DNA of 64,000 nt from an uncultured Bacteroidales bacterium. Lineage in GTDB: Bacteria; Bacteroidota; Bacteroidia; Bacteroidales; WCHB1-69. The notes beneath the pieces were generated by a model, which made no database searches, had not been told where the DNA came from, and was given only the letters and a program-made list of their open reading frames with translations. A program made the position numbers and the translations under genes. The stretch spans positions 8,452 to 72,451 of the forward strand of contig ONQE01000001.1 of the NCBI GenBank assembly GCA_900319925.1, written 5' to 3'. Positions 2,114-51,313 of this stretch are shown here, piece by piece; position 1 is the stretch's first letter; each line of letters begins with the position of its first letter.

Positions 2114-2683
2114 TTATTCTTTGAGCAACTCGTCGATTTCTTCGTTGAGTTCGTCGAAGCGTTTCTTTACCCGCTTGGAGGTTTTGATTACGACAGGAAT
2201 GGACAAAAGACCGGAGACTAGTAGAGTAAAGAACATTGATCTGTCGTAGAAAAAGAGGTAAACATATATCAACAATGATATTATTATGCCAACAACCTGT
2301 ATGACAATGCGTTTACGCTTCGAATAGGTCGTGCTCTTTTGAATACTATCCCGCAACGAAAGGAGACCTTCGCGACTCTGCGCGTCGGCTTTTCGGAGAC
2401 CGTTGGTGGCGATAAGACTGTCCAACGTAATCCAGCCAAGAAAGAGGTCACTGGGGAGTAAAAGCCACCACGGCCAATATTCACAGAGGATAAAGTTACT
2501 GGCGGTTATGATGACTACCAAAAATATGACGGAAAGCAAGTTCTGCATATAGAGGTGCTTGCTGTGCCGTTTCACCGCACGCTGCCATACCTCCCTGTTG
2601 AAGCTGCTGTGCTGCTCCACATTCTGCTGCAGGTCGTGCAGTTCCTGCTGCAGTTCGCTTTTGATGTCTTCGTACTGTTCCAT
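2114..2683 (-). CDS. 4-TM membrane protein, putative partner or anti-sigma of the upstream ECF sigma (paralog 1)
   Basis: 189 aa. A cytoplasmic helix (MEQYEDIKSELQQELHDLQQNVEQHSSFN) precedes four hydrophobic segments. It starts 15 nt after the sigma gene stop. Its first 28 aa are identical to the ORF at 6079-6657. Confidence 0.6.
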   Translation of the reverse strand: MEQYEDIKSELQQELHDLQQNVEQHSSFNREVWQRAVKRHSKHLYMQNLLSVIFLVVIITASNFILCEYWPWWLLLPSDLFLGWITLDSLIATNGLRKADAQSREGLLSLRDSIQKSTTYSKRKRIVIQVVGIIISLLIYVYLFFYDRSMFFTLLVSGLLSIPVVIKTSKRVKKRFDELNEEIDELLKE

Positions 2684-6060: not shown

Positions 6061-6081
6061 AGACTTAAGACTTGGGACTTA
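6061..6081. repeat. Heptamer array, family F (AGACTTA AGACTTG GGACTTA)
   Basis: Three clear units plus two degenerate ones extending to 6095. Contains the stop codon and last codons of ORF 6079-6657. Lies 36 nt upstream of the M16 start. Confidence 0.5.
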
Positions 6082-6657
6082 AGAGGGTTGGGATTCGTCC
6101 AGTAGCTCGTCGATTTCCTCGCTAAGCTCGTCGTAGCGTTTCGTCACCTCCCGGGTTCTTTTGCGACCAAAGGGACCATTTAAGAATCCAATCCATATAA
6201 TCATGGAGAAGCAGGCTATGCGGTCGTAAAAAAAGAGGAAAACTTCAGACACCAGAAACAAAATGATACCGATTATTCGGATGATGGTGCGTTTGCGCTT
6301 CGAGTAGGTCTTTAAACTTTCTCGCAGCGAGAGGAGACCTTCGCGGCTCTGCACGTCGGCCTTCCGGAGACCAATTATGGCGAAAAGGCTGTCAACCGCT
6401 ATCCAAACAAAGTACAGGTCGCACAAGAGGATAAGCCACCAAGGCCACTTGATGAGAGTGAGAGCGACGGTTAAGGCAATCGTGATGACTACAGCCGCTC
6501 CTGCGAGAAAAGCGTTTAGCCAGTAGAGTTCATTGCTGGACTGTTTCACCGTCTCCCGCCATGCGTCATTGTTGAAGCTGCTGTGCTGCTCCACATTCTG
6601 CTGCAGGTCGTGCAGTTCCTGCTGCAGTTCGCTTTTGATGTCTTCGTACTGTTCCAT
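6079..6657 (-). CDS. 4-TM membrane protein, putative ECF sigma partner (paralog 2)
   Basis: 192 aa with the same architecture as 2114-2683. The N-terminal 28 aa are identical, the membrane part has diverged, and the motif LRKAD.QSREGLLSLR is shared. Confidence 0.6.
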   Translation of the reverse strand: MEQYEDIKSELQQELHDLQQNVEQHSSFNNDAWRETVKQSSNELYWLNAFLAGAAVVITIALTVALTLIKWPWWLILLCDLYFVWIAVDSLFAIIGLRKADVQSREGLLSLRESLKTYSKRKRTIIRIIGIILFLVSEVFLFFYDRIACFSMIIWIGFLNGPFGRKRTREVTKRYDELSEEIDELLDESQPS

Positions 6658-7232
6658 ATCTGTCTTGAGGTTTAATCGGTGAATGATTTGAGTTTTTCGC
6701 GTATGCGCACCAGACGTACGCTGACGTTATCGACGGTGATGCCGAGGATGGCGGCAATCTCGTCGTAGGGCAGGTCTTCGAGCCAAAGCAGGATCAGTGC
6801 CCGGTCAAAGGGATGTAATTTCGCGATGCGCTTGTGCAGGCGGCTGGCGGCAGGACAGGCTTCCTCGTCGGCGAAGAGGTCGATGTCCATTTCCAGCGGC
6901 ATGCAGTCGGGACGGCGGCGGTGGCGTTTGTCGAGGGTCACGCAGGTGTTCAGCGCCACCCGATAGACCCACGTCTTGGCCGAGCTTCGCCCCTCAAAAC
7001 TGTCGATACCCTGCCAGAGGCGTATCAGCACCTCTTGGGCGAGGTCGTCCGCTTCTTGGCGGTCGTTGGCGAAGAGGTAGCACACCGAGTAGATGGTCTG
7101 CCGCTGCTCCTGCACTAACCGTTCGAAGTCGCGCTCTTTCTGTTCTTTGTCTTTTTTCTGCTTCATCTGTCAGACATTGTTTTCCTTTTGACTACGAAGG
7201 TAGCGAAAAACTACACCCTAAACTCAAAAAAA
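6571..7232. repeat. Direct repeat copy 2, paired with 2597-3252
   Basis: See copy 1. Confidence 0.85.
6672..7166 (-). CDS. ECF-type RNA polymerase sigma-70 factor (paralog 2)
   Basis: 164 aa. Differs from paralog 1 at 6 residues by hand count. Confidence 0.85.
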   Translation of the reverse strand: MKQKKDKEQKERDFERLVQEQRQTIYSVCYLFANDRQEADDLAQEVLIRLWQGIDSFEGRSSAKTWVYRVALNTCVTLDKRHRRRPDCMPLEMDIDLFADEEACPAASRLHKRIAKLHPFDRALILLWLEDLPYDEIAAILGITVDNVSVRLVRIREKLKSFTD

Positions 7233-12655: not shown

Positions 12656-12690
12656 TAACTGCTAACTACTAACTACTAACTGCTAACTAA
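12656..12690. repeat. Heptamer array, family A in reverse orientation (TAACTGC TAACTAC x2 TAACTGC TAACTAA)
   Basis: Five units ending 2 nt from the rho stop codon. Read in the rho sense it is AGTTAGC/AGTTAGT. Confidence 0.85.
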
Positions 12691-12692: not shown

Positions 12693-14606
<1,914 letters not shown>

Positions 14607-14710
14607 TTTTTGATGATAAAACTTGCATTGGATTTTTCGCCACGGCACGGAAGGCAATCGACTGCCGACCCTGTTTTGCCCGTCGCGGAGCATCTGTTTG
14701 AATTGCGCTG

Positions 14711-14718: not shown

Positions 14719-14806
14719 CAATATTTTTCGAAATACCAACACTTGTGGGAATTTTTTTATTTCACAACCCTATATCCCTGCCCATACATTTCAAGAAAAC
14801 AACCCC

Positions 14807-14883
14807 CTTAACTCTCAACCCTTAAACCTTAAACCTTAACCCATAACCCTTAACCCATAACCCTTAAACCTTAAACCTTAACC
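14807..14883. repeat. Heptamer array, family B (CTTAAAC/CTTAACC/CATAACC), 11 units
   Basis: Hand-parsed with perfect 7-nt phasing. Lies in the divergent rho/T9SS-gene promoter region. Confidence 0.9.
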
Positions 14884-14952
14884 CAAAATTATCAACATTT
14901 CACTATTAAGAATTTTTATGAAAAAAATTTGCCGAGGTTATGATAAAAACAG

Positions 14953-16280: not shown

Positions 16281-16329
16281 AGTTAGCAGTTAGTAGTTAG
16301 CAGTTAGCAGTTAGTAGTTAGTAGTTATA
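16281..16329. repeat. Heptamer array, family A (AGTTAGC/AGTTAGT), 7 units
   Basis: Hand-parsed. Starts immediately after the terminator T-run. Confidence 0.9.
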
Positions 16330-16344
16330 CACTAGCGAGAAACC

Positions 16345-16445
16345 CCATAACCCATAAGCCATAAGCCATAACCCATAACCCATAAGCCATAAACCATAAA
16401 CCTTAACCCATAAACCATAACCCTTAAACCTTAAACCTTAAACCA
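16345..16445. repeat. Heptamer array, family B (CCATAAC/CCATAAG/CCATAAA/CCTTAAC/CCTTAAA), 14 units plus a partial unit
   Basis: Hand-parsed. The last partial unit (CCA) directly abuts the folP ATG at 16446. Confidence 0.9.
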
Positions 16446-17258
16446 ATGTACAAACTATCAGCCAACGCGCCTTTAATTATGGGCATCCTGAATGTGACGG
16501 AAGACTCGTTCTATGACGGGGGCCGCTATACGTCGGAGGAGGCGGTGCGGAGGCGTGCGGCGCAGATTCTGGCGGAGGGCGGCGACATCATCGACATCGG
16601 GGCGATGTCCACACGCCCGGACGCCATGGAAATCCCCGAAGAGGAGGAGAAGACGAGGATTGTGCAGGCGGTGCGGTGCATTCGCGAAGATTTCCCCGAT
16701 GCCGTCCTTTCCGTGGACACCTACCGCGCCAACGTGGCCGAGGCGGCCGTGGAGGCAGGTGCCGACATCATCAACGACATCTCCGGCGGCACCTTCGACC
16801 CCGAGATGATTCCCACCATCGGCCGACTGCAGGTACCCTACGTGCTGATGCACACGCCCGCAAAACCGGCTGAGATGCAGCAACATACGGAATACAACGA
16901 CCTTCTCGGCGAGATGCTGCAGTTTTTCGGGAAACAGATCGCCCTTCTGCATCGGCACGCCGTCCACGACATCATCCTCGACCCCGGCTTCGGTTTCGGC
17001 AAGACCCTCGAACAGAACTACTTCCTGATGAAGAATCTGGAAGTGTTCTCGGAACTCGGATACCCGTTGCTGGTCGGTATCTCCCGCAAATCGATGATCT
17101 ACAAACTGTTGGGGACCACTCCGGAACACGCTCTCAACGGCACCACCGTCCTCAACACCGTCGCCCTGATGAAAGGGGCAAACATTCTGCGCGTCCACGA
17201 TGTGCGTGAGGCGGTCGAAGTGCGAAAAATATTATCTTTGCCGAAAAAATCAAAATGA
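16446..17258 (+). CDS. folP: Dihydropteroate synthase
   Basis: 270 aa. IMGILNVTEDSFYDGGRY plus DIGAMSTRP and GISRKS motifs. Confidence 0.9.
   Translation: MYKLSANAPLIMGILNVTEDSFYDGGRYTSEEAVRRRAAQILAEGGDIIDIGAMSTRPDAMEIPEEEEKTRIVQAVRCIREDFPDAVLSVDTYRANVAEAAVEAGADIINDISGGTFDPEMIPTIGRLQVPYVLMHTPAKPAEMQQHTEYNDLLGEMLQFFGKQIALLHRHAVHDIILDPGFGFGKTLEQNYFLMKNLEVFSELGYPLLVGISRKSMIYKLLGTTPEHALNGTTVLNTVALMKGANILRVHDVREAVEVRKILSLPKKSK
17233..17240 (+). promoter_or_regulatory. -7 promoter box inside the folP 3' end
   Basis: TATCTTTG, 14 nt upstream of the ATG at 17255. Confidence 0.35.
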
Positions 17259-18226
17259 ACCAGAAACCCTTAACCTTATACCTGTGTCTCGCCTTGGTTA
17301 TCCTTCTAACCAGTTGTTTTTCAAGAAGAAACAACCAAGAAGAGGGTGCTGGTGAAGCGGTCGTCTATCCTATGGAGGTGATCAGCGACACTTTGGTGGC
17401 GGATGTGCACAATCAAAACACCCTCTATCCATTGGAGGAGGAGGTTTTGGAATCGTTCTTAGAGAAAGCCCGCGATTTCCAGGGCAAGGGATGGACCGCG
17501 AAGGCCGAATTCCCCGAAAAGTGGGGCGTGGAGTGCGTGGAACGGTTGCCCGACGGCCGCGAGCTGTGGCTCCTGCGGTCGGAGAACCGCGAGTGGGCCT
17601 ACTTAGCCACGACCTCCGGCTTCGGCACCCAGCGCATCCTCGACGTGTTGCCTGCCGCCATCAGCGTGGCCAACCAGCGCGACGAGGAGCTCGAAACCGA
17701 GACCTGGCAGACGCTGCGCCTCCCCGACGGGCAGTTCCGCACCACCAAGGAGTACGAGTGGATCCACTCCGTGTCGAAGGCCACCAAACAACAATTCATC
17801 AGCGACCCTGAGAAATACCACCGCAAGACGCGCTTCGTGGAGCAGTTCCTCATCAACGCGCAGGGCCGCTTCGAGCAGTCGGAGATTGTCGATACCCTAC
17901 CCGACTACAATGCCGTGGTCTTCTATTTCAACCCCGCCGACAAGCCCGAAATGTGGGACGAGACCGTTATGCACCTGCAGGCTTTCTGCGAGGAGAACGG
18001 CGTGATTTACGAGGAGGTGAGCGGCAACTTCAACCGCGTGACCGTGCGCGACTACGAGCTGACCTTTGCTCTGGAGACCGACATCACGCCCTACATCGAC
18101 GCCACCGGCTCCGGCATGGTGATGATGCGCAAAGGCGAGTTACCCAAGTCGGTCAACTTCGGCTCCTACGAGTACATGCAGATGGAGCTGCGCCGCTATT
18201 TCAAAATCCGCGATTTCGAATCATAG
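17255..18226 (+). CDS. Hypothetical lipoprotein
   Basis: 323 aa. Signal peptide ending LTSC. ATGA overlap with the folP stop. No family recognised. Confidence 0.6.
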   Translation: MNQKPLTLYLCLALVILLTSCFSRRNNQEEGAGEAVVYPMEVISDTLVADVHNQNTLYPLEEEVLESFLEKARDFQGKGWTAKAEFPEKWGVECVERLPDGRELWLLRSENREWAYLATTSGFGTQRILDVLPAAISVANQRDEELETETWQTLRLPDGQFRTTKEYEWIHSVSKATKQQFISDPEKYHRKTRFVEQFLINAQGRFEQSEIVDTLPDYNAVVFYFNPADKPEMWDETVMHLQAFCEENGVIYEEVSGNFNRVTVRDYELTFALETDITPYIDATGSGMVMMRKGELPKSVNFGSYEYMQMELRRYFKIRDFES

Positions 18227-18229
18227 CCC

Positions 18230-19555
18230 ATGCTTGCGCGATTTCTCCAGGAACTTCAACGTCTGGCGGGAGCTGACGCCCTGCGGAAATGCTACCTCGT
18301 GGCGGTGAGCGGCGGTGCGGATTCGACCGTCGCGGCTACACTCTTCCATGAGGCTGGACTGCATTTCGCGATGGCGCACTGCAACTTCCACCTGCGCGGC
18401 GCCGACTCCGACCGTGACATGCGATTCGTGCAGGAGATGGCCGAACGCTGGAATGTACCGCTCCTCGTCCGCGAGTTCGACACCTTCTCCGTACAGCGGG
18501 ACTCTGGGAAATCCATCGAGATGGTGGCCCGCGAGCTGCGATACGACTGGTTCTCGGAGATCTTGTCCGGCTACGACCACCTCGTGACCGCCCACCACGC
18601 CACCGACGCCGCCGAAACCCAACTACTCAACCTCACCCGCGGCACCGGACTGAGAGGGCTTTGCGGCATCCCGTCCGTGAACGGGAAAACCATCCGCCCG
18701 ATGCTGTCCTTCACGGCACAGGAAATCCGCCAATACGCTGAGGATCATCATATTGCATACGTTGAAGATTACACCAACCGCGACGAGCATATCGCCCGCA
18801 ACCGCATTCGCCACTCCGTCATTCCGCAATTGGAGGCGATCAATCCGCAGTTCCTACAGACCAACACGCGCACACGTCAAGTTCTGCAACGGCAATACGA
18901 ATATTATCAGAAACATATAGCGGCCGAGATACGGAATATCACCAGCAAAGAGGGTCGGCAGCTTCGCATTGACCGCCAGAAGCTGGCCCACAATGAGGAT
19001 AAAACCTTGATACTCTACGAAATACTGAACGAATACGGTTTCACCGCCGATGCTGTGGAGAAAATTGCGGCCAACGACCAGATGCCCGTAGGCAGATATT
19101 TTTCTTCCGATTCTCACAGATTGCTGATTGACAGGGAATTCTTGATTCTTCAACCTCAATTGGAAGAAAAGGAGCATATCCCGATTGAAATAGGCTCATT
19201 GGAAGACCTGAAAGCTTATTTTCAAGTTGAAGAATTTGATTATCAAGAGGGTATGGTCTTCGATAAAAACCCGAAGATCCTTTATATTCCGAAAGACAAG
19301 TTGACCTTCCCGCTGGAAATCCGGTCCTGGCAGCACGGCGACTCCTTCCACCCTCTTGGCGGAAAAGGCCGCCAGAAAGTCAGCGACTTTTTCACCGACC
19401 ATAAGATAGACCGCTTCGCCAAAGAACGCATCCGTCTTCTTTGTTCAGGCGACAACATACTATGGATCATCGATTTACGTTCCGATGAACGATTCAAAGT
19501 GACACCCAAAACCGAAAGGTACTACCGGTTAAGTCCATTGGCTGTTGGCCATTAA
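18230..19555 (+). CDS. tilS: tRNA(Ile)-lysidine synthetase
   Basis: 441 aa with the PP-loop SGGADSTV. Confidence 0.85.
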   Translation: MLARFLQELQRLAGADALRKCYLVAVSGGADSTVAATLFHEAGLHFAMAHCNFHLRGADSDRDMRFVQEMAERWNVPLLVREFDTFSVQRDSGKSIEMVARELRYDWFSEILSGYDHLVTAHHATDAAETQLLNLTRGTGLRGLCGIPSVNGKTIRPMLSFTAQEIRQYAEDHHIAYVEDYTNRDEHIARNRIRHSVIPQLEAINPQFLQTNTRTRQVLQRQYEYYQKHIAAEIRNITSKEGRQLRIDRQKLAHNEDKTLILYEILNEYGFTADAVEKIAANDQMPVGRYFSSDSHRLLIDREFLILQPQLEEKEHIPIEIGSLEDLKAYFQVEEFDYQEGMVFDKNPKILYIPKDKLTFPLEIRSWQHGDSFHPLGGKGRQKVSDFFTDHKIDRFAKERIRLLCSGDNILWIIDLRSDERFKVTPKTERYYRLSPLAVGH

Positions 19556-19579
19556 ACCTTAAACCCTAAACCTTAAACT
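19552..19579. repeat. Heptamer array, family B (TTAAACC x2, CTAAACC, TTAAACT)
   Basis: Four units. The tilS stop (19553-19555) lies inside unit 1, and the array ends 2 nt before the sufS ATG. Confidence 0.85.
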
Positions 19580-19581
19580 GA

Positions 19582-20784
19582 ATGAATAGAAACGATTTTC
19601 CCATATTGAATGAAAAGGTGTACGGCAAAACCCTCGTCTATTTAGACAATGCCGCCACCACGCAGAAGCCGCAAGTGGTGATTGACGCGCTGAGCGACTA
19701 CTACCGGCGCATCAACAGCAACATCCATCGCGGCGTGCACTGTCTCAGCCAGTTGGCGACCAACGAGTTCGAGCAGGCGCGCGAGGCGGTGCGGCAGTAC
19801 ATCCACGCAGCCTCGACACAGGAGGTCATTTTCACGCGCGGCGCGACCGAGTCCATCAATTTGGTGGCAGCCTCCTTCGGGCGCACCTACCTGCACGCGG
19901 GCGACGAGGTCATCGTTTCCGAAATGGAGCACCACTCGAACATCGTGCCGTGGGAGTTGGCCTGCGAGGACCGCGGCGCGACGTTGAAAGTGCTGCCGTT
20001 CAACGATAAAGGGGAGCTGATGCTCCGGGAATTGGAGACCCTGATAACCGAGCGCACCAAGATTGTGGCCGTGGCGCACGTCTCCAACTCGTTGGGCACC
20101 GTCAACCCGATTGAGGAGGTCATCCGCATCGCGCACAGCCACAATGTACCCGTCCTTATCGACGGAGCGCAGGCCGTAGCGCACTGTCCTGTGGATGTGC
20201 AGGCCCTCGACTGCGACTTCTACTGTTTCTCCGGCCACAAGATGTACGCCCCGATGGGTATCGGCGTAATGTACGGCAAAGCGCAGTGGCTCAACGAGAT
20301 GCAACCGTATCAAGGGGGTGGTGAGATGATCAAGGACGTCACCTTCGAGAAGACGACCTACAACGAGCTGCCCTACAAATTCGAGGCGGGCACCCCGTCG
20401 GTGGGCGATGTCATCGGGCTGCGCAAGGCCATCGAATACATCGGGGGCATCGGGCTGGCAAACATTGCTGCCCACGAGCAGGAGCTGTTGGCATACACCA
20501 CGGAGAAGCTGGCGAGAATCGACGGGATGCGCTTTATCGGCGAGGCGTCGCACAAAACGGGGGTCATCTCGTTCCTCGTGGGCGACACCCATCCCTACGA
20601 TATGGGCGTACTCCTTGACCATCAAGGTATTGCAGTTCGCACGGGACATCATTGCACCCAACCGGTGATGACCCATTTCGGTATTCCCGGCACCATCCGC
20701 GCCTCCTTTGCCCTTTACAACACCTTTGAGGAGGCGGATGCGCTCGTGGATGCGGTCGTGAAAGCGAAAAATATGCTTTCTTGA
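19582..20784 (+). CDS. sufS: Cysteine desulfurase, SufS family
   Basis: 400 aa. PLP-lysine context FSGHKMYAP and active-site RTGHHCTQP. Confidence 0.85.
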   Translation: MNRNDFPILNEKVYGKTLVYLDNAATTQKPQVVIDALSDYYRRINSNIHRGVHCLSQLATNEFEQAREAVRQYIHAASTQEVIFTRGATESINLVAASFGRTYLHAGDEVIVSEMEHHSNIVPWELACEDRGATLKVLPFNDKGELMLRELETLITERTKIVAVAHVSNSLGTVNPIEEVIRIAHSHNVPVLIDGAQAVAHCPVDVQALDCDFYCFSGHKMYAPMGIGVMYGKAQWLNEMQPYQGGGEMIKDVTFEKTTYNELPYKFEAGTPSVGDVIGLRKAIEYIGGIGLANIAAHEQELLAYTTEKLARIDGMRFIGEASHKTGVISFLVGDTHPYDMGVLLDHQGIAVRTGHHCTQPVMTHFGIPGTIRASFALYNTFEEADALVDAVVKAKNMLS

Positions 20785-20837
20785 TTAGTGATTAGTGATT
20801 AGTGATTGGTGATTTGTGACTTGTGATTTGTGATGAA
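20782..20837. repeat. Heptamer array, family C (TGATTAG x3, TGATTGG, TGATTTG, TGACTTG, TGATTTG, TGATGAA)
   Basis: Eight units. The first TGA is the sufS stop codon, and the last units contain the GTG/ATG start of the next gene. Confidence 0.9.
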
Positions 20838-21621
20838 TGTTTCGATGAAAAACAGTTTTGCATTGGTTACCGGAGGGAGTTCCGGTATTGGTCTCGCGTA
20901 CGCGCAGGAGTGGGCGCGGATGGGCTATAACATCTTGATTGTCAGCAATCGTGAGGACTTGAACGCGGAGGCGCAGCGCCTTTTGCAGACGCAGTTCCCC
21001 GAGCATCAAATCCGGACACGTTATCAGGATTTGGCCTCGGACGGCGCAGCGCAGGAGCTGTTCGACTGGTGCGAAAGTGAGCACCTCATCGTGGAGGTGT
21101 TGGTCAACAATGCGGGGATGTTCTATTTCGGGGCGGCAGTGGAGAAGCCTGTTGCGCTGAGCCATACGATGACCATGCTGCACTGCACCACCCCGGTGGA
21201 TTTATGCGTGCTGTTCGGCAAAAAGATGAAAGAGCGGCGGTGCGGATACATTCTCAATGCTGCCTCCATCACGGCGTTCATGAGCTTCCCCACCATCGCC
21301 GCCTATCAGGCCACCAAATCCTACTTGCTGAAGTTTTCCAAGGGTATCCACTATGAACTAAGTCATTACGGAGTAAAGGTGTGTTGCGTGTGTCCCGGTG
21401 CGGTGGACACGGATCTCTACAATCTGCCGGTGAAGATGCGCAAGCGGCTTCGCGCCGTCGGGGTGATGATGTCGCCCGAGCAGATCGCGAAACGCGGTGT
21501 TCGCGCCACCTTGCATGGCCGGAAGGTCAAGATTCCCGGTCCTATCAACTACTTTTTCCTGCTGTTGTGTTTCCTGCTGCCCGGATTTGTCATCAATCTC
21601 GTGAAGAAGAAGTTCGTCTGA
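20833..21621 (+). CDS. Short-chain dehydrogenase/reductase (SDR)
   Basis: TGGSSGIG cofactor motif and YQATK catalytic motif. The start is either the ATG at 20833 or the GTG at 20830. Confidence 0.8.
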   Translation: MNVSMKNSFALVTGGSSGIGLAYAQEWARMGYNILIVSNREDLNAEAQRLLQTQFPEHQIRTRYQDLASDGAAQELFDWCESEHLIVEVLVNNAGMFYFGAAVEKPVALSHTMTMLHCTTPVDLCVLFGKKMKERRCGYILNAASITAFMSFPTIAAYQATKSYLLKFSKGIHYELSHYGVKVCCVCPGAVDTDLYNLPVKMRKRLRAVGVMMSPEQIAKRGVRATLHGRKVKIPGPINYFFLLLCFLLPGFVINLVKKKFV

Positions 21622-21641
21622 ACTTCACCGTATAAAACAGA

Positions 21642-21667
21642 TAGAGACGTGCCGGGGCACGTCTCTA
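21642..21667. terminator. Bidirectional hairpin terminator between convergent genes
   Basis: Perfect 11-bp stem TAGAGACGTGC cggg GCACGTCTCTA. Confidence 0.6.
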
Positions 21668-21691
21668 CGTTTGTTAATAGGGTTCAGGAGA

Positions 21692-22069
21692 TTATCCCAG
21701 CATGGCGGTGTAGGCGGCAGCGTCCATCAGTTCAGCGACTTGGGCAGCGTCCGTCATTTTGATCTTGATGATCCAGCCTTCGCCGTAGGGGTCGCTGTTC
21801 ACGAGGGCGGGCTCGCCTTCGAGGGCCTCGTTGAATTCAACGACTTCACCACCGACGGGCAGCAACAGGTCGGCGACGGTCTTGACGGCCTCGATAGAGC
21901 CGAAAACCTCATCCTTGTCCAGGGTCTCACCCACGGAGGGGATATCGAGGAAAACGATGTCGCCCAACTCGTTGGCGGCGTGAGCGGTAATGCCCACCAA
22001 TGCAAATTCACCATCCACTTTCAACCATTCGTGGTCTTGGGAATACTTCAAATTCTCAGGAATATTCAT
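21692..22069 (-). CDS. gcvH: Glycine cleavage system protein H
   Basis: 125 aa with the lipoyl-lysine context [11 protein letters not shown]. Confidence 0.9.
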
Positions 22070-22093
22070 ACTCTTAAGTTTATAAATGAAAAA

Positions 22094-22651
22094 TTAAACG
22101 GTCATAATCTCTTTTTCTTTGGCTTCCATGATCTTATCGACCTTGGAGATGGCCTCGTCGGTGGCCTTTTGGATATCGGCCTCCAGTTTCTTGACGGCAT
22201 CCTCTTCCACGCCGTCGTCTTTCAGCTTCTTGGCATCGTCATTGGCGGTGCGGCGGATGTTGCGGATGGCCACCTTGGCCTGTTCGGCATCCTGTTTGGC
22301 TTTCTTCACCAGTTCTTTACGGCGTTCCTCTGTCGGGGCGGGAATCACCAGGCGGATGAACTCGCCGTTGTTCTGCGGGGTCACGCCGATGTTAGCCGCC
22401 AGGATAGCCTTCTCGATCACGGGCAGCATATTGCGCTCCCACGGTTGAATCACGATCTGGTGTGCATCCGGGGTGTTCACGTTGGCCACTTGTTCGATAG
22501 GCGTGGGGTTGCCGTAGTAATCGACCTTGATGCCGTCCAGCATTTGCGGGGAGGCCTTGCCGGCACGGACCTTCTGCAAGTCTTTGTCAAAATGCGCCAC
22601 AGTGGCGTTCATGCTCTCTTTCGCTTGTTTCAAGCAGGTTTGTGTATCCAT
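22094..22651 (-). CDS. frr: Ribosome recycling factor
   Basis: 185 aa with the typical Frr sequence (VRAGKASPQMLDGIKVDYYG). Confidence 0.9.
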   Translation of the reverse strand: MDTQTCLKQAKESMNATVAHFDKDLQKVRAGKASPQMLDGIKVDYYGNPTPIEQVANVNTPDAHQIVIQPWERNMLPVIEKAILAANIGVTPQNNGEFIRLVIPAPTEERRKELVKKAKQDAEQAKVAIRNIRRTANDDAKKLKDDGVEEDAVKKLEADIQKATDEAISKVDKIMEAKEKEIMTV

Positions 22652-22663
22652 TCTTGTAATATT

Positions 22664-23098
22664 TTAATCGATGTAATTTGGACTTCTATGTTCGGGTTCT
22701 TCTTCAACCGTCTCTTCTTCGGAAAGATCCTCTTGAACGGCATCTGCCTTCGGGGCCATTTCCGCCTTCAGGCTCTCAATCTCCTGGAGTTGCCTTAGAC
22801 GCATTTTCTTCAGAGAAGTTAATTCTTTCTCTTTATAGGATTTCGTCCACTTATAGACAATCATATAGTGCAGGGCAATACCGAGGAACCAAACGAGGAA
22901 AACGAAGAGGATGGCCATCAGGAAAGTGCTTTCCGCACTGTCTCTGAACAGGAAATACCACACCACCCACAGGAAGGCGTTGACCAAGAAGAAAATGGCG
23001 AAGTGCTTCTTGAAGCCTGTTCTGCGGGAAGCCATTCTCTCCAGTTTGGCCTCTTCCTCGGGGGAGATTTGCGGTATATTGGGATTGCTCTCTTCCAT
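22664..23098 (-). CDS. 2TM domain membrane protein
   Basis: 144 aa. FKKHFAIFFLVNAFLWVVWY plus a second TM segment, followed by a charged tail. Confidence 0.55.
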   Translation of the reverse strand: MEESNPNIPQISPEEEAKLERMASRRTGFKKHFAIFFLVNAFLWVVWYFLFRDSAESTFLMAILFVFLVWFLGIALHYMIVYKWTKSYKEKELTSLKKMRLRQLQEIESLKAEMAPKADAVQEDLSEEETVEEEPEHRSPNYID

Positions 23099-23102
23099 AG
23101 TA

Positions 23103-23807
23103 TCAGTAAATTAGGGTTCCGATGGGTTCGCCGTTGAGAACCTTGATCAGGTTGCCTTTGGTGTTGGCGTCATAGACGTAGATGGGCATCTTGTTGTCCT
23201 GGCAGAGGGCGAAAGCGGTCATGTCCATGATGCGCAAGTTCTTTTGGTAGGCTTCGGCGAGGGTCAGTTCCGTGAATTTCACGGCGTTGGGGTCTTTTTC
23301 GGGGTCGGCGGTATAGACGCCATCGACGCGGGTACCCTTGATGAGCAGGTCGGCTTTGACTTCGAGGGCGCGGAGGGCCGCTCCGGTGTCGGTGGTGAAG
23401 AACGGGTTGCCGGTGCCGCCGGCGAGGAAGGTAACGTAGCCCTCTTCCAACGACTCGATGGCGGTGCGCCAGGAGGTTTTCGCACAGACGCCTTCGATGT
23501 TCACGGCGGAGAGCACGCGAGCTTTGACGCCCATCTCCTCGAGCACGCCCTGGACGGCGAGTGCGTTGATAACCGTGGCGAGCATTCCCATCTGGTCGCC
23601 CTGACGGCGTTCGAAACCGGCAGACGCGCCTTGCACGCCCCGGAAGATGTTGCCGCCGCCGATGACCACCGCCACCTGCACGCCGGCATCCACTGCCGAT
23701 TTGATTTCGTTGGCGTAATGCACAATATGATTGTAACTTACACCATATCCATCGTCGCCCGTCAGCGACTCACCACTCAATTTCAACAATATGCGTTTGT
23801 ACTTCAT
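23103..23807 (-). CDS. pyrH: UMP kinase
   Basis: MKYKRILLKLSGESL. I set the start at the ATG at 23805-23807 because the longer ORF covers the promoter box. Confidence 0.9.
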   Translation of the reverse strand: MKYKRILLKLSGESLTGDDGYGVSYNHIVHYANEIKSAVDAGVQVAVVIGGGNIFRGVQGASAGFERRQGDQMGMLATVINALAVQGVLEEMGVKARVLSAVNIEGVCAKTSWRTAIESLEEGYVTFLAGGTGNPFFTTDTGAALRALEVKADLLIKGTRVDGVYTADPEKDPNAVKFTELTLAEAYQKNLRIMDMTAFALCQDNKMPIYVYDANTKGNLIKVLNGEPIGTLIY

Positions 23808-23826
23808 ATTCCTAAAAATCAGGTCG

Positions 23827-23834
23827 CAAAGATA
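23827..23834 (-). promoter_or_regulatory. -7 promoter box for the pyrH operon
   Basis: Minus strand reads TATCTTTG, 19 nt upstream of the ATG. Confidence 0.6.
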
Positions 23835-23973
23835 CATTTTTTTCGGTTAGATAGTTTTAGTTTAAGTATCAGAATTCAAAAAGCTAAAAACCGAAGAAAT
23901 AATTCATTTTGGTTGCAATAATTCTGTCCCTTTTTCGTTATACTTATAACAAAACGAAATAGATATTTTAACT

Positions 23974-24663
23974 ATGAGACTTATTAACAACATCTTATCT
24001 CTGTTTTACCCGAGGCTGTGCGCGGCTTGTGGTGATGCGTTGCAGCAGAATGAATCCTGTATCTGTCTGGATTGCATGCTGCATCTTCCTGAGACGCAAT
24101 TTCACAAAGAGCACTTCAATCCATTGCGGAGCGTGTTCGACGGGCGCGTGCCCGTGGAGGAGGTCTCTGCGCTGATGAGCTACAAGAAGGCGAACCGCAC
24201 GCAGAAAATCCTCCACAACCTGAAGTACAAGGGGCAGAAGGAGATCGGGGCGGTATTGGGCGAATACTTTGGCGGTCAGCTGATTACAGAGGAGCGATGG
24301 CGTGGCGTCCAGTACATACTCCCGATTCCGTTACATCCGAAGAAGCAGCGTAAAAGGGGGTACAACCAGAGCGAGTGGATTGCGATGGGGCTCTCCAAGG
24401 GGATGGGCATCCCCTACCTCACGGATGTGCTGGTGCGCACGGAGTTCACGGAGACGCAGACCCGGAAGAACCGGTTCGCGCGGTGGCAGAATGTGAAGGA
24501 GGTTTTTGCCGTGCAACATCCTGAGAAGGTGGAACATACGCATGTGTTGGTCTGCGACGATGTGCTCACGACCGGCGCCACCACGGAGGCGGCCATCCGC
24601 AAATTGCTGGAGGTTCCGGGGGTGCGGGTCAGCGTGGCGACCTTGGCGGCCACGACGCTATAG
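23974..24663 (+). CDS. comF: ComF family phosphoribosyltransferase-like protein
   Basis: 229 aa. N-terminal Cys pairs (CAACGD, CLDC) and a PRTase motif VLVCDDVLTTGAT. Confidence 0.75.
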   Translation: MRLINNILSLFYPRLCAACGDALQQNESCICLDCMLHLPETQFHKEHFNPLRSVFDGRVPVEEVSALMSYKKANRTQKILHNLKYKGQKEIGAVLGEYFGGQLITEERWRGVQYILPIPLHPKKQRKRGYNQSEWIAMGLSKGMGIPYLTDVLVRTEFTETQTRKNRFARWQNVKEVFAVQHPEKVEHTHVLVCDDVLTTGATTEAAIRKLLEVPGVRVSVATLAATTL

Positions 24664-24700: not shown

Positions 24701-24860
24701 CTCTAACTCTTGTTCAACTCTTGTTCAACTCTGGTCTAACTCCGATGTAACTCCGATGTAACTCCGATACAACTCCGATCAAACTCCGATATAACTCCGA
24801 TACAACTCCGATCAAACTCCGATCAACTCCGATCAAACTCCGATCAACTCCGATACAGCT
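24701..24860. repeat. 11-bp tandem array (CCGATNNAACT type), about 15 units
   Basis: Hand-parsed. Three leading CTTGTTCAACT/CTGGTCTAACT units are followed by CCGAT(GT/AC/CA/AT)AACT units. Two units are 10 bp. Confidence 0.9.
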
Positions 24861-24942: not shown

Positions 24943-25146
24943 ATGAAAAAGAGACTGAAACTTGGACTTATTGTTTGCGTATTATTGTGTATATCAACAT
25001 CTTGCGCAAGAAAGATCAGCGGTGCCACCCCGCACCGTCGCGACCGCAACTGCGGCTGCGAGAACCTTTACCCAATGTACAATTTACAATGTACAATGTA
25101 CAATTTACAATGTACCAATCACTATTCACTAATCACCAATCACTAA
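24943..25146 (+). CDS. Possible small lipoprotein-like upstream ORF (67 aa)
   Basis: MKKRLKLGLIVCVLLCISTSC looks like a signal peptide with a lipobox-like end. The C-terminal third is encoded by heptamer arrays. Its stop overlaps the next ATG (TAATG). Nearly leaderless relative to the promoter box, so coding status is uncertain. Confidence 0.25.
   Translation: MKKRLKLGLIVCVLLCISTSCARKISGATPHRRDRNCGCENLYPMYNLQCTMYNLQCTNHYSLITNH
25074..25115. repeat. Heptamer array, family D (AATGTAC/AATTTAC), 6 units
   Basis: Hand-parsed. Confidence 0.9.
25117..25144. repeat. Heptamer array, family C in reverse orientation (AATCACT ATTCACT AATCACC AATCACT)
   Basis: Four units running into the ATG at 25146. 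Confidence 0.85.
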
Positions 25147-28831: not shown

Positions 28832-28897
28832 CTTGACTGGGAAAGCTCTTAATCTATTAAAAAATACATCTCAGACTTTCATAACCTTGTCATATAA

Positions 28898-29047
28898 AAG
28901 GATTTACTCAATCCACGAGAAACGAGAATCCACCACAACCCTTTCCCTGTTCTGCATCTCCAAAACTGCCTCGCCTCCGGCACATACCTCGTGAAGATCA
29001 ACTTCGAGCGAGGGGTGAGCGTGGTGAGGAAGGCGGTGCGGAGTTAG
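28898..29047 (+). pseudogene. Orphan 3' fragment of a T9SS C-terminal sorting domain
   Basis: The frame ends ...LHLQNCLASGTYLVKINFERGVSVVRKAVRS*, which is the terminal strand pattern of a Por secretion tail. There is no upstream gene body. Confidence 0.45.
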
Positions 29048-29076
29048 CAGTTAGCAGTTAGTAGTTAGCAGTTGGT
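29042..29076. repeat. Heptamer array, family A (AGTTAGC x2, AGTTAGT, AGTTAGC, AGTTGGT)
   Basis: Five units. The stop codon of the CTD fragment lies in unit 1. Confidence 0.85.
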
Positions 29077-42437: not shown

Positions 42438-42460
42438 CGGCCATTATAGAATTATAGGAA

Positions 42461-49285: not shown

Positions 49286-51163
49286 ATGAGGGACTGTTAC
49301 GATATCATAGTGGTGGGTGCAGGTCATGCGGGATGCGAGGCCGCCGTTGTTTCGGCCAAGCTTGGGAACAGTGTTCTTCTCATTACGATGAACCTTGCCC
49401 TCGTGGCGCAGATGTCGTGCAACCCGGCTATTGGAGGTATCGCCAAAGGACAAATTGTTCGCGAAATAGATGCGTTGGGTGGTATGACGGGTATTGTGAC
49501 CGACCATACCATGATCCAGTACCGAATGCTCAACCGTTCGAAGGGACCCGCTATGTGGAGTCCGAGGGCACAGTGCGACAAAACAGCCTTTTCCTTGTAT
49601 TGGAAACATATTCTTGAAAATACTCCTAATCTCCATCTTCGTCAAGATACCGTGACCGAATTGTTATTTGATGCGGATAGGGTCATTGGCGTCAAGACGC
49701 AATTGGGTAAGACTGTTCTCTCAAAGAAAGTCATTCTCACTAACGGTACTTTTTTGAACGGACGTATTCATGTCGGGGAGGTTAATTTTTCCGGCGGTAG
49801 GATAGGGGAGAGTGCTTCTTTCATTTTGTCCGACCAATTGAAAGAGCGTGGCATCGTTACGAAAAAACTCAAAACCGGAACCCCTGTCCGAATTGATGGA
49901 CGGACTGTCGATTTCTCCAAAATGGAAGAACAACCCGGTGAAAACCCTCCGGGACGTTTTTCGTTCACCAATACCCCTCCTCTTCACCGGCAGCTCAGTT
50001 GCTGGATTACCTATACCAACGAGCAAGTACACCAAGTACTCCAAAAGGGTTTCGAAAAGTCCCCTATGTTCCAGGGACGCATCCAAGGTGTGGGTCCCCG
50101 TTATTGTCCGTCCATAGAAGATAAAATCGTTCGTTTCGCTGACCGTACACGTCACCAACTCTTTCTTGAACCGGAGGGACGCAATACAAATGAATATTAC
50201 CTCAACGGTTTTTCCTCCTCTCTTCCTGAAGATATTCAGGTGGAGGCCCTCCATCTGATTCCTGGATTGGAACAAGCCGAGATATACCGTCCGGGTTATG
50301 CCATCGAGTATGACTATTTCGACCCGATGCAGTTGCGTTATACGCTTGAATCGAAAATTATCGGAAACCTTTATCTTGCCGGACAGGTGAACGGAACCAC
50401 CGGTTATGAGGAGGCGGCGTGTCAAGGACTCATGGCAGGCATCAACGCACATCTCTCCCTTGCCGAAAAAGATCCTTTGATTTTGACCCGTTCACAGGCT
50501 TACATCGGTGTGCTCATTGACGATCTGATTACGAAAGGTGTCCAGGATCCCTATCGCATGTTCACTTCGCGAGCTGAATACCGCATTTTGTTGCGACAGG
50601 ACAATGCCGACCAAAGGCTTACTCCGATAGGCAATCAGTTGGGTCTGATTGATGCGGAACGCTATGAGGAATTTCTCCACAAATACGATCTGCAGACGCA
50701 AATCACCGACTACCTTCGAAGCCATACTACCCACTTTCAAACGCTCAATGAGCTGCTCGTTAAACGGGAAACTTCTCCCTTGAATCAAAATGTCAAATTG
50801 GAAAATGTATTGCTCCGTCCCCAAATCTCCATTCAGGATCTGATGGATTATGATCGTGAGTTTGCCTATTTCCTGCAACAGATTGGTGCCGATTCAGAAC
50901 AGATTACCAACGCCGAAACGAGTATAAAATACAGCAGCTATATTCAGAAGGAGGAAGAAATGGTGCAACATCTCACCAATCTCGATGCTATTAAGCTGCC
51001 TCTCGATTTGGATTATCCAAACATCAATTCTTTGTCGAAAGAGGCGCGTGAAAAGCTGTCCAAACTCCAACCCGCAAATCTGGGGCAAGCCTCTCGCGTC
51101 AGTGGTGTGAGTCCAGCCGATATTACCGCACTGATGATTTATCTTAGGACTTGTGATTTGTGA
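49286..51163 (+). CDS. mnmG: tRNA uridine 5-carboxymethylaminomethyl modification enzyme MnmG (GidA)
   Basis: 625 aa. FAD motif [12 protein letters not shown]. The last codons and the stop lie inside a heptamer array. Confidence 0.95.
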
Positions 51164-51313
51164 TTTGTGATTAGTGAGGTGTGATTTGTGATTTGTGAAT
51201 TGTGATTTGTGATTTGTGAATTGTGATTTGTGATTAGTGAGGTGTGATTAGTGAGGTGTGATTAGTGAGGTGTGATTAGTGAGGTGTGATTAGTGAGGTG
51301 TGATTAGTGGTAG
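51153..51313. repeat. Heptamer array, family C (GTGATTT/GTGATTA/GTGAGGT/GTGAATT), 23 units
   Basis: Hand-parsed and contains no C at all. It ends in six copies of the 14-mer GTGATTAGTGAGGT. The mnmG stop (51161-51163) is inside unit 2. Confidence 0.9.

What the first reader, a model, noticed from the sequence alone, without database searches (positions are those of the whole stretch)
19552..20837. sufS is bracketed by two spacers made entirely of repeat units
The tilS-sufS spacer (26 nt) is 4 family B units, and the tilS TAA lies inside unit 1. The sufS-SDR spacer is 8 family C units. Its first TGA is the sufS stop and its last units contain the GTG/ATG start of the SDR gene. No non-repeat nucleotides remain for a conventional ribosome-binding site or promoter. 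Initiation of sufS and of the SDR gene must therefore occur on repeat RNA.
Basis: seen in the sequence. Interest (0 to 1): 0.6.

Follow-up and report, generated by a model that had tools for sequence, protein, structure and literature searches.

The report
Seven-base repeat spacers flanking sufS
The two short gaps either side of the sufS gene really do consist of tandem 7-base repeats, but this is one local case of a repeat type already known in bacteria, in a rumen Bacteroidales genome whose ribosomes do not need a classical ribosome-binding site.

Summary
The 26-nt tilS-sufS spacer is 3.9 units of TTAAACC, with the tilS TAA in unit 1. The sufS-SDR spacer is 7.6 units of TGATTAG; the first TGA is the sufS stop and the last unit holds the SDR start, most likely ATG 20833. 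Period 7 is uniquely enriched in the window: 10 arrays against 0 for periods 5, 6, 8 and 9 and 0 in simulations. The repeats appear in at least 8 independent assemblies.

The claimed paradox dissolves:
- Only 3 of 55 genes here have a Shine-Dalgarno-like motif, as expected for Bacteroidia.
- The genes lie in one co-oriented block. A Bacteroidetes -7 box (TATCTTTG, 17233) lies upstream and a hairpin terminator (21642-21667) follows, so the spacers need no promoter.

The arrays behave like slippage-driven heptanucleotide simple-sequence repeats. The unit sequences differ in the 89%-identical relative L001. The downstream array has two alleles among strains (48 or 57 nt). Longer arrays elsewhere vary in copy number. 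The G-free upstream array is completely unstructured and puts AAA at -5..-7 and -12..-14.

This is a new member of a known kind: STRR/LSSR heptamers and the TAACTGA repeats of MacGregor 2015. Interest is low to moderate.

The parts
17233..17240 (+). TATCTTTG, a Bacteroidetes-type -7 promoter box. It is the nearest upstream candidate promoter for the gene at 17255, tilS, sufS and the SDR gene.
   Evidence: TAnnTTTG occurs 51 times against 32.6 expected. The TATCTTTG variant recurs just upstream of many starts. None lies on the + strand between 17241 and 21621. Its function is inferred.
18230..19555 (+). tilS (tRNA lysidine synthetase). Its last codons and its TAA stop lie in the repeat array.
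   Evidence: TIGR02432 at 1.7e-48 and TIGR02433 at 4.9e-13; the L001 TilS also runs into its own array (tail PLTIDFDFDR*).
19535..19581 (+). Upstream heptamer array. Clear units TTAAACC x3.9 span 19552-19578. Two degenerate units (CCATTGG CTGTTGG) precede them inside tilS, and ...CTGA follows. The clear units and the spacer (19552-19578) contain no G; the degenerate units inside tilS and the final TGA do.
   Evidence: lag-7 score 12; 0 such arrays in simulations. MFE of -30..+21 around the sufS ATG is 0.0 kcal/mol, rank 53 of 55 genes from most to least structured; stops in all three frames and no ATG/GTG/TTG between the tilS stop and the sufS ATG.
19582..20784 (+). sufS (SufS-family cysteine desulfurase). 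Its TGA stop is the first triplet of the downstream array.
   Evidence: TIGR01979 at 4.9e-177, above its cut-off; conserved N-terminus.
20782..20837 (+). Downstream heptamer array: TGATTAG x3, then TGATTGG, TGATTTG, TGACTTG, TGATTTG and a partial unit. It has two alleles among strains.
   Evidence: 7.6 copies; the second allele is TGA GTTGTGA CTTGTGTGA TTTGTGA CTTGTGA TTTGTGA GTTGTGA GTTGTGA GTTGTG ATG (57 nt against 48 nt) and occurs in 6 assemblies.
20833..21621 (+). Short-chain dehydrogenase/reductase gene. The most likely start is ATG 20833; alternatives are GTG 20830 and ATG 20845.
   Evidence: SDR families. (N-terminal comparison with relatives); public gene calls use the 262-aa form.
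21642..21667 (+). Bidirectional hairpin terminator between the SDR gene and the convergent gcvH gene.
   Evidence: 11-12 bp stem with 6 GC pairs, followed by a T-run on both strands.
16281..16445 (+). Context: AGTTAGC x6.7 (16281-16327), then CCATAAC/CCTTAAA x14.4 (16344-16445). The second array abuts the ATG of the folP-like gene at 16446.
   Evidence: MFE 0.0 at this start; copy number differs in strains L182-184, but the start-proximal units are conserved.
51144..51309 (+). Context: a long array of the same GTGATTA family. It begins inside the last codons of mnmG (...TCDL*).
25073..25145 (+). Context: CAATGTA x6 and AATCACT x4.4 (the reverse complement of family C). These arrays abut ATG 25146 of a lipoprotein gene.
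   Evidence: identical in four haplotypes.
12656..12689 (-). Context: AGTTAGC/AGTTAGT array in the sense orientation, starting 4 nt after the rho stop codon.
14805..14884 (+). Context: CCTTAAA/CCCTTAA/CCCATAA array in the divergent spacer between rho and a T9SS-tailed protein gene.
   Evidence: MFE 0.0.

Best explanation
The two spacers are heptanucleotide simple-sequence-repeat arrays of the STRR/LSSR kind. They grow, shrink and turn over by replication slippage or unequal exchange.

**Why they sit where they do.** The genome is a rumen-type Bacteroidales whose intergenic DNA is peppered with such arrays. A 7-nt unit cannot expand inside a gene without frameshifting it, so arrays persist only between genes. 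Most units contain TAA, TAG or TGA, and 7 mod 3 = 1, so each array closes all three reading frames within 21 nt. This explains why the flanking ORFs (tilS, sufS, mnmG and others) end in the first units.

**Why they are tolerated against start codons.** The arrays lie inside a probable tilS-sufS-SDR transcription unit, so they need no promoter. Bacteroidia initiate without Shine-Dalgarno pairing, so they need no ribosome-binding site.

**sufS.** The 30S subunit loads on an unstructured TTAAACC leader that has no G before the last two bases and no AUG. The leader places adenines at -5..-7 and -12..-14, so it should be a good initiation region.

**SDR gene.** The G/U-rich TGATTAG array gives an ordinary-to-poor leader.

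**What is shown.**
- The anatomy of the arrays.
- The statistical excess of period 7.
- Presence in independent assemblies.
- Turnover between strains and species.
- Absence of Shine-Dalgarno motifs.
- Absence of predicted structure at the sufS start.

**What is inferred.**
- Co-transcription of the genes.
- The slippage mechanism.
- The quality of the two initiation regions.
For: **Period 7 is uniquely enriched.**
- One search finds 9 strict arrays covering 487 nt. Periods 5, 6, 8, 9 and 10 give none.
- One search finds 10 arrays against 0 in Markov simulations.
- A few unit families recur at several loci: AGTTAGC x3, CCTTAAA-type x4, GTGATTA x3 and CAATGTA x2.

**Turnover.**
- L001 (sufS 89% identical) has the same gene order. 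Its arrays at both junctions use different units: ACCGTTG/ACCATTG/ACCAATA/ACCTATA upstream and GGCAATW downstream.
- L003 has TTCTCAA units downstream. L083 has an 8-mer array (AACCCATT/AACCCACT) against the sufS ATG. L002 has none.
- Two alleles of the downstream array differ by blocks of adjacent identical units: TTAGTGA x3 against GTTGTGA x3.
- The folP-upstream arrays and an 11-mer array vary in copy number among strains that are 95.5-99.4% identical.

**No Shine-Dalgarno use.** Only 3 of 55 genes carry the motif. The literature agrees.

**Operon context.**

**RNA structure.** The sufS initiation region has MFE 0.0, rank 53 of 55 from most to least structured. The SDR region has MFE -6.3, rank 13 of 55.

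**Frames.** Stops occur in all three frames of both arrays.

**Known parallels.**
- TAACTGA repeats lie against start codons without Shine-Dalgarno motifs and occur in some Bacteroidetes (PMC4679880).
- Heptamers are over-represented intergenically and vary between close relatives at the same intergenic sites (PMC4692102).
Against: - The same few unit families recur at unlinked loci, and AGTTAGT also occurs in a distant Bacteroidetes (L053). Purely local, neutral slippage does not predict this. It hints at sequence selection or some way of spreading.
- The upstream array is invariant in all assemblies. The start-proximal units of the folP and lipoprotein arrays are also conserved while distal units vary. 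This could reflect constraint, although the expected number of changes is too small to tell.
- An array has persisted at the tilS-sufS junction across two species.
- No transcript, translation or read-level data could be obtained.
Confidence: 0.65

Rival explanations
1. The arrays are selected cis-elements acting on RNA. [quoted passage not shown] The G-free CCTTAAA-type units would be the active form.
For: - Arrays end 0-3 nt from four start codons in the window: 16446, 19582, 20833 and 25146.
- The sufS and folP leaders have MFE 0.0, and in both the unit phase puts A at -6, -12 and -13. These positions are positive determinants in F. johnsoniae. L001 sufS shows the same phase.
- Start-proximal units are conserved between haplotypes while distal units vary.
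- Unit families recur across loci and in L053.
- An array is retained at the junction in both the window species and L001.
Against: - Unit sequences at orthologous junctions differ completely between species, and L002 and L084 lack arrays.
- Family C occurs in both orientations relative to transcription (20782 against 25117).
- The SDR and lipoprotein leaders lack A at the key positions.
- The phase match has a chance probability of about (2/7)^2 for two arrays.
- The lack of substitutions in the arrays is not significant. For L176, about 1.5 changes are expected and 0 are seen.
- Several arrays lie far from any start (14805, 29042, 51144).
Confidence: 0.2
2. The arrays are phase-variation (contingency) switches. 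Changes in unit number would turn sufS or SDR expression up or down within a population.
For: The downstream array has two length alleles, 48 and 57 nt. Longer arrays elsewhere vary in copy number between strains.
Against: - The upstream array is identical in all assemblies.
- The arrays are imperfect, with a run of at most 3 identical units.
- They lie between a stop and a start, so length changes alter neither the reading frame nor the spacing of a recognisable promoter.
- The flanking genes are housekeeping (tilS, sufS, mnmG, rho, folP), not surface or restriction genes.
- The two alleles are fixed differences between haplotypes and include unit substitutions. They are not simple plus-or-minus-one-unit variants.
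Confidence: 0.07
3. The arrays modulate operon polarity or mRNA fate. Examples would be Rho loading on C-rich, G-free stretches, or RNase cleavage in unstructured A/U-rich RNA, so that expression of neighbouring genes is uncoupled.
For: Family B arrays are C-rich, G-free and unstructured. The long ones (80-101 nt) reach the size of a rut site. Arrays often start right at stop codons, where the RNA becomes free of ribosomes.
Against: The tilS-sufS array (27-47 nt) is short for a rut site. Family C is G/U-rich. There are no expression data. The idea rests on general knowledge of Rho, not on a test made here.
Confidence: 0.05
4. The repeats are artefacts of metagenome assembly.
For: Logan contigs start or end inside arrays, at 16415, 16418, 20785 and 20811. 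A jump from about 98.5% to 100% identity occurs exactly at the downstream array, so assemblers may switch strains there.
Against: Both arrays are shorter than a read. The same sequences are recovered from at least 8 samples in several separate assembly collections. Related species carry arrays at the same junctions.
Confidence: 0.02

Closest known systems
TAACTGA intergenic heptamer direct repeats of marine Beggiatoaceae, cyanobacteria and a few Bacteroidetes (MacGregor 2015, PMC4679880)
   Same: - Tandem 7-nt units end within a few nucleotides of start codons and overlap the place where a ribosome-binding site would be.
- There is no Shine-Dalgarno motif and no predicted RNA structure.
- Stop codons in the units limit overlap with ORF ends.
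- The repeats occur in Bacteroidetes such as Flexibacter, Paludibacter, Gramella, Aequorivita and Elizabethkingia.
- 7-nt indels occur between strains.
   Different: - The units here are TTAAACC and TGATTAG, not TAACTGA. The nearest family in the window (TAACTGC/TAACTAC) has 2 mismatches per 14 nt. It lies antisense to that orientation, just downstream of stops.
- Several unit families coexist in this genome.
- The host is a Shine-Dalgarno-blind Bacteroidales, so lack of the motif needs no special explanation.
Cyanobacterial STRR (short tandemly repeated repetitive) heptamers and heptanucleotide LSSRs (Mrazek 2007, as summarised in PMC4679880 and PMC4692102)
   Same: - Period 7 is specifically over-represented.
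- The location is intergenic.
- A few unit families are used per genome.
- Length and sequence vary at the same intergenic site between close relatives.
- Polymerase slippage is the proposed origin.
   Different: The phylum and the unit sequences differ. The arrays here are short (4-24 units), imperfect, and often fill a whole operon-internal spacer from stop to start.
Shine-Dalgarno-independent initiation regions of Bacteroidia (Baez 2019, PMC6847099; Jha 2021, PMC7797042)
   Same: The sufS leader is unstructured, G-poor and free of upstream AUG. It carries A at -6, -12 and -13.
   Different: Known initiation regions are not tandem repeats. A at -3 is absent (it is U). The SDR leader is G/U-rich and lacks the favourable adenines.
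Phase-variable simple-sequence contingency loci (for example Moraxella uspA2 AGAT repeats in a 5' UTR)
   Same: A tandem repeat lies between the upstream signals and a start codon. One of the two arrays is length-polymorphic.
   Different: The units are imperfect and the genes are housekeeping. The upstream array is invariant, and no frame or promoter-spacing logic applies.

Membership tests
Heptanucleotide simple-sequence repeat arrays (LSSR / STRR-like) | Head-to-tail direct repeats of a 7-nt unit, at least 3 copies | tested here: met
   19552-19578 has 3.9 copies at 90% matches, and 20782-20834 has 7.6 copies at 91% matches.
Heptanucleotide simple-sequence repeat arrays (LSSR / STRR-like) | Period 7 over-represented relative to other periods and to chance | tested here: met
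   10 arrays at score 12 or more, against 0 for periods 5, 6, 8 and 9 and a mean of 0.0 for period 7 in the Markov simulations.
Heptanucleotide simple-sequence repeat arrays (LSSR / STRR-like) | Predominantly intergenic, with a few unit families reused at many loci | tested here: met
   all but one array (56752, in frame within a T9SS tail) lie in spacers or at ORF ends. The families AGTTAGC, CCTTAAA-type, GTGATTA and CAATGTA recur.
Heptanucleotide simple-sequence repeat arrays (LSSR / STRR-like) | Length or sequence turnover at the same site between close strains or species | tested here: met
   the downstream array is 48 or 57 nt. L001 has different units at both junctions; the folP arrays vary. 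The upstream array itself is invariant within the species.
TAACTGA start-proximal repeats (MacGregor 2015) | Unit sequence TAACTGA in tandem | tested here: not met
   no match with fewer than 2 mismatches per two units. The nearest units are TAACTGC and TAACTAC, at other loci.
TAACTGA start-proximal repeats (MacGregor 2015) | Array ends within a few nucleotides of a start codon, with no Shine-Dalgarno motif and no RNA structure | tested here: met
   This holds for sufS. The SDR leader is moderately structured, at -6.3 kcal/mol.
TAACTGA start-proximal repeats (MacGregor 2015) | A dedicated repeat-binding regulator or co-regulated gene set | not testable with these tools
   No expression or binding data are available. 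This also remains only a proposal in the original paper.
Phase-variable contingency locus | Repeat-number changes alter the reading frame or promoter spacing of a surface, virulence or restriction gene | tested here: not met
   The arrays lie between a stop and a start. No TAnnTTTG box lies in or next to them. The genes are tilS, sufS and an SDR gene.
Phase-variable contingency locus | Length heterogeneity within populations | tested here: inconclusive
   The upstream array is identical in all assemblies. The downstream array has two alleles that are fixed between haplotypes. Reads from a single population were not available.
Shine-Dalgarno-led ribosome-binding site | A core of at least 4 nt of AGGAGG located 4-22 nt upstream of the start | tested here: not met
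   the motif is absent at sufS and the SDR gene, and present at only 3 of 55 genes.
REP/BIME/MITE-type or CRISPR-type intergenic repeats | Inverted-repeat hairpins, or repeats separated by unique spacers | tested here: not met
   no inverted repeats in the spacers; no significant folding. The units are contiguous; no Rfam family matches.

The most novel reading that the evidence does not exclude
In this Shine-Dalgarno-blind Bacteroidales lineage, the G-free CCTTAAA/TTAAACC-type arrays could be selected, modular translation-initiation leaders.
- Their 7-nt period places AAA at -5..-7 and -12..-14, covering the A-6, A-12 and A-13 determinants.
- They cannot fold.
- They contain no start codons.
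- They stop ribosomes in every frame just before the next gene.

Unit number would be free to drift distally while the start-proximal units and their phase are kept. On this reading, slippage-prone heptamers would be a cheap evolutionary source of ribosome landing pads.
Probability: 0.15. Interest if true: 0.55.

Novelty: new member of a known kind. Interest (0 to 1): 0.3.

Why it matters
The finding shows that a gene can start directly on simple-repeat RNA with no dedicated ribosome-binding sequence. It also offers natural test material, in the form of alleles with different units and lengths, for asking what a Shine-Dalgarno-independent ribosome needs from a leader. It extends dense intergenic heptamer arrays to an uncultured rumen Bacteroidales group. 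These arrays were described mainly in cyanobacteria, Beggiatoaceae, Xanthomonas and a few Bacteroidetes. There is a practical point too. The arrays break short-read contigs, may mark strain-switch or recombination points, and extend ORF ends with repeat-encoded tails, so they affect MAG assembly and annotation. None of this overturns current understanding.

Tried and rejected
- **Raw reads and RNA-seq.** Read-level and transcript evidence could not be obtained.
- **Rfam.** Only a tRNA at 60889-60961 was found, and nothing in the spacers.
- **Sigma-70 promoter and terminator scan.** Counts matched the shuffled expectation. The only convincing site is the hairpin at 21642-21667. I used the Bacteroidetes TAnnTTTG box instead.
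- **Inverted repeats and hairpins in the spacers.** None were found, so REP, MITE and attenuator ideas were dropped.
- **Exact TAACTGA tandems.** None were found, so the arrays were not filed under that family.
- **Purifying selection on arrays.** The absence of substitutions among haplotypes is not significant, because fewer than about 1.5 changes are expected. The test was not used as evidence.
- **Phase of AAA relative to the start codon.** It fits at sufS, the folP-like gene and L001 sufS. It does not fit at the SDR gene, the lipoprotein gene or L083. The sample is too small.
- **Enrichment of stop codons in units.** About 11 of 14 unit types contain a stop. The test is partly circular, because an array that abuts an ORF end must contain one.
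- **Pfam on the ORF fragment ending at 29047 and on the 67-aa ORF.** There were no hits.
- **Metagenome and genome scans.** Only 5 to 6 close relatives were found, so phylogenetic depth is limited.
Full report
**What is there**

The region carries three co-oriented genes, confirmed by NCBIfam.
- tilS is 18230-19555 (TIGR02432 at 1.7e-48; TIGR02433 at 4.9e-13).
- sufS is 19582-20784 (TIGR01979 at 4.9e-177, above its cut-off).
- An SDR oxidoreductase ORF opens at 20830 and ends at 21621.

The 26-nt tilS-sufS spacer reads ACCTTAAACCCTAAACCTTAAACTGA. Tandem Repeats Finder reports 19552-19578 as period 7, 3.9 copies. The tilS TAA (19553-19555) is inside the first unit.

The sufS-SDR spacer is 20782-20834, period 7, 7.6 copies. 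It consists of TGATTAG x3 followed by TGATTGG, TGATTTG, TGACTTG, TGATTTG and a partial unit. Its first TGA is the sufS stop. GTG 20830 and ATG 20833 lie in its last units.

**Is it more than chance, and is it real DNA?**

I scored self-matches at a fixed lag. At a score of 12 or more the window holds 10 period-7 arrays. It holds none for periods 5, 6, 8 or 9, and 40 Markov simulations gave a mean of 0.0 for period 7. A stricter threshold gives 9 arrays covering 487 nt.

- A Logan contig from ERR2027911 is 100% identical to window 16415-22279.
- A 99.07%-identical strain (ERR3201393) has the same upstream spacer.
- Look-up by the SDR protein returned eight places from at least seven samples. 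All that span the upstream spacer carry it unchanged. The downstream array appears in exactly two forms.
- Contigs often begin or end inside arrays (16415, 16418, 20785, 20811), as expected for real repeats in de Bruijn assemblies.

**What organism and what context**

The closest sufS loci are rumen and gut Bacteroidales MAGs: L001 at 89%, L002 at 89%, L083 at 89%, L084 at 86% and L003 at 76%.

The window is full of heptamer arrays from a few families.
- AGTTAGC/AGTTAGT occurs at 12656, 16281 and 29042.
- CCTTAAA/CCATAAC occurs at 14805, 16344 and 19552.
- GTGATTA occurs at 20782 and 51144, and as its reverse complement at 25117.
- CAATGTA occurs at 25073 and 56752.
- An 11-mer array lies at 24702-24857.

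The arrays flank housekeeping genes: rho, a folP-like gene, tilS, sufS, mnmG and guaA.

Several ORFs end in the first units of an array.
- tilS, whose tail is PLAVGH*.
- sufS.
- mnmG, which ends ...TCDL*.
- A 67-aa lipoprotein-like ORF at 24943-25146.
- An ORF fragment ending at 29047.

Four genes start within 0-3 nt of an array: 16446, 19582, 20833 and 25146. The lipoprotein gene's true start, ATG 25146 (MKKLLLLITAALMLAACG), lies directly after two arrays.

**Comparison with relatives**

L001 keeps the order tilS-sufS-SDR and has arrays at both junctions, but with different units.
- Upstream it has CCGTTGA/CCATTGA/CTTTGA units, then CCAATAA/CCTATAA units up to a GTG start.
- Downstream it has GGCAATW x4.

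Its TilS also reads into the array (tail PLTIDFDFDR*). The first L001 units resemble the degenerate CCATTGG CTGTTGG at 19535-19548 of the window. I therefore infer that the two arrays are homologous and that the window's array begins inside tilS.

Other relatives differ again.
- L003 has TTCTCAA units before the SDR start.
- L083 has an 8-mer array (AACCCATT/AACCCACT) against the sufS ATG, behind a different upstream gene.
- L002 has no array, and L084 has only two GTTCAAA units before the SDR start.

Across 80 mostly distant sufS loci, period 7 is still the commonest tandem period, with 13 arrays in 524 kb. That density is about five times lower than in the window. One distant Bacteroidetes locus (L053) carries AGTTAGT x11.

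**Variation within the species**

The downstream array has two alleles.
- The window type is TGA + TTAGTGA x3, TTGGTGA, TTTGTGA, CTTGTGA, TTTGTG-ATG, giving 48 nt from stop to ATG.
- The second type is TGA + GTTGTGA, CTTGTGTGA, TTTGTGA, CTTGTGA, TTTGTGA, GTTGTGA x3 (the last fused to ATG), giving 57 nt. It occurs in six assemblies.

The two alleles share a core and differ by blocks of adjacent identical units at opposite ends. This is the signature of local duplication by slippage.

Upstream of the folP-like gene, strains about 97.7% identical have 4.7 rather than 6.7 AGTTAGC units and a longer CCATAAx array. The start-proximal CCTTAAA x3 + CCA-ATG is unchanged. The 11-mer array also varies, giving stop-to-start intervals of 482, 461 and 444 nt. 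The heptamers next to ATG 25146 are identical in four haplotypes. The expected number of substitutions in these short tracts is below about 1.5, so their invariance is not evidence of constraint.

**The supposed paradox**

Only 3 of 55 genes in the window have AGGA, GGAG or GAGG at -22..-4. Leaders are A-rich (up to 64% A at -11) and G-poor. This matches the known biology of Bacteroidia.
- Their ribosomes sequester the anti-Shine-Dalgarno sequence.
- Initiation is tuned by low mRNA structure and by adenines at -3, -6, -12 and -13.
- AUG is avoided near starts (PMC6847099, PMC7797042, PMC13000457).

The sufS leader fits this well.
- The MFE of -30..+21 is 0.0 kcal/mol, rank 53 of 55 from most to least structured.
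- There is no G until the last two bases.
- No ATG, GTG or TTG lies between the tilS stop and the sufS ATG.
- A occupies -5..-7, -12..-14 and -19..-21. U, not A, is at -3.

The SDR leader is G/U-rich, has an MFE of -6.3 (rank 13 of 55), lacks the favourable adenines and carries many GTG and TTG triplets. I predict modest initiation there.

No promoter is needed in the spacers.
- TAnnTTTG, the Bacteroidetes -7 box, is enriched in the window (51 against 32.6 expected).
- Its TATCTTTG form sits just upstream of many starts, including 17233-17240, which is 15 nt before ATG 17255.
- None occurs on the + strand from there to 21621.
- A 12-bp hairpin terminator follows the SDR gene.
- sufS-SDR adjacency is conserved in all close relatives.

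Co-transcription is an inference, not a demonstration.

**Mechanism**

The best-supported view is that these are slippage-generated heptanucleotide simple-sequence repeats.
- They survive only outside coding frames because 7 is not a multiple of 3.
- They bound the neighbouring ORFs because their units carry stop codons that rotate through all three frames.
- They are tolerated right up to start codons because this organism's ribosomes need only an open, A-containing leader.

Initiation of sufS, and probably of the SDR gene, does therefore occur on repeat RNA. This is unremarkable for this organism.

I cannot exclude that the G-free family is favoured as a leader, or that a protein recognises the repeats. 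Evidence pointing that way:
- The same unit families recur at unlinked loci and in a distant genome.
- An array has persisted at this junction across species.
- The AAA phase matches the favoured adenine positions at three starts.

Evidence against:
- Unit identity turns over completely between species.
- Family C occurs in both orientations.
- The SDR and lipoprotein leaders do not fit the adenine pattern.

**Comparison with what is known**

Three precedents are close.
- MacGregor (2015, PMC4679880) described TAACTGA repeats lying a few nucleotides upstream of start codons, without Shine-Dalgarno motifs, unstructured, and limited by their stop codons. They occur in Beggiatoaceae, cyanobacteria and five Bacteroidetes.
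- Cyanobacterial STRR heptamers, and the general excess of heptanucleotide repeats reported by Mrazek 2007 and cited.
- The Xanthomonas and Nostoc heptamers, which also vary in length and sequence at the same intergenic sites between close relatives (PMC4692102).

Heptamer repeats overlapping start codons have also been noted in Nostoc, where a regulatory role is suspected (bioRxiv 10.1101/2022.06.06.494920).

The present arrays fail the sequence criterion for the TAACTGA family. They meet every criterion tested for the broader heptanucleotide repeat class. They do not meet the criteria of contingency loci, Shine-Dalgarno sites, REP/MITE elements or CRISPR arrays.

**Verdict**

This is a new member of a known kind, of modest interest.

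Noticed in passing
window 20742-24121, compared with L163 (ERZ28612977 scaffold_131): Identity to the other haplotype is 97-99.5% across tilS and sufS. It drops to 86.5% with a 9-nt indel in the array, then is 100.0% for 3.3 kb downstream. The array marks either a recombination breakpoint between strains or a point where assemblers switch strains.
   Followed up: partly
window 24702-24857: The 11-nt tandem array (AACTCCGATNN, about 11 copies) is copy-number polymorphic among strains. The interval from the upstream stop to ATG 25146 is 482, 461 or 444 nt.
   Followed up: partly
window 16281-16445, compared with L182-L184: Both arrays upstream of the folP-like gene differ in unit number between strains that are about 97.7% identical. 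The three CCTTAAA units next to the ATG are conserved.
   Followed up: partly
window 56752-56781: A heptamer array (ATGTACA x4.3, 30 nt, in frame) lies inside the Por_Secre_tail (T9SS C-terminal) domain of the 908-aa protein at 54231-56957. It encodes ...DVQCTMNNVQL....
   Followed up: no
window 24943-25146: A 67-aa ORF has a lipoprotein-like signal peptide (MKKRLKLGLIVCVLLCISTSC). It reads through the CAATGTA and AATCACT arrays and ends in a TAATG stop/start overlap with the next lipoprotein gene. It has no Pfam hit. It is unclear whether it is a real gene.
   Followed up: partly
window 51144-51309: This is the longest array, about 24 units with 14, 21 and 42-nt higher-order periodicity. It starts inside the last four codons of mnmG and is followed by 265 nt of AT-rich spacer before a rubrerythrin gene.
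   Followed up: partly
window 28895-29073: An ORF fragment ends ...GTYLVKINFERGVSVVRKAVRS* with its TAG in the first AGTTAGC unit. By eye it resembles the end of a T9SS sorting domain, but Pfam gives no hit. It may be a gene remnant.
   Followed up: partly
window 2114-3192 and 6079-7166: Two paralogous gene pairs are present. The ECF-type sigma factors are 96% identical. Each sits next to a 189/192-aa partner across a near-identical 14-nt spacer. This looks like a recent duplication.
   Followed up: partly
window 12693-14693 (-), 14805-14884 and 16344-16445: The 666-aa rho gene is flanked by arrays. The long G-free, C-rich, unstructured arrays have the composition expected of Rho loading (rut) sites. 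This was not tested.
   Followed up: no
L053 630-707, and the window family C unit: AGTTAGT x11, the same unit as in the window, occurs in a distant Bacteroidetes MAG. The family C unit GTGATTA is the same heptanucleotide reported as a repeat in Helicobacter pylori, as cited in PMC4692102. This could be coincidence or a sign that some heptamers are favoured.
   Followed up: no
window 42000-52000: G+C drops to 0.40-0.45, against 0.50-0.57 elsewhere. This stretch includes a tight co-oriented gene block with low coding scores under the window's codon model. It may be a horizontally acquired segment.
   Followed up: no
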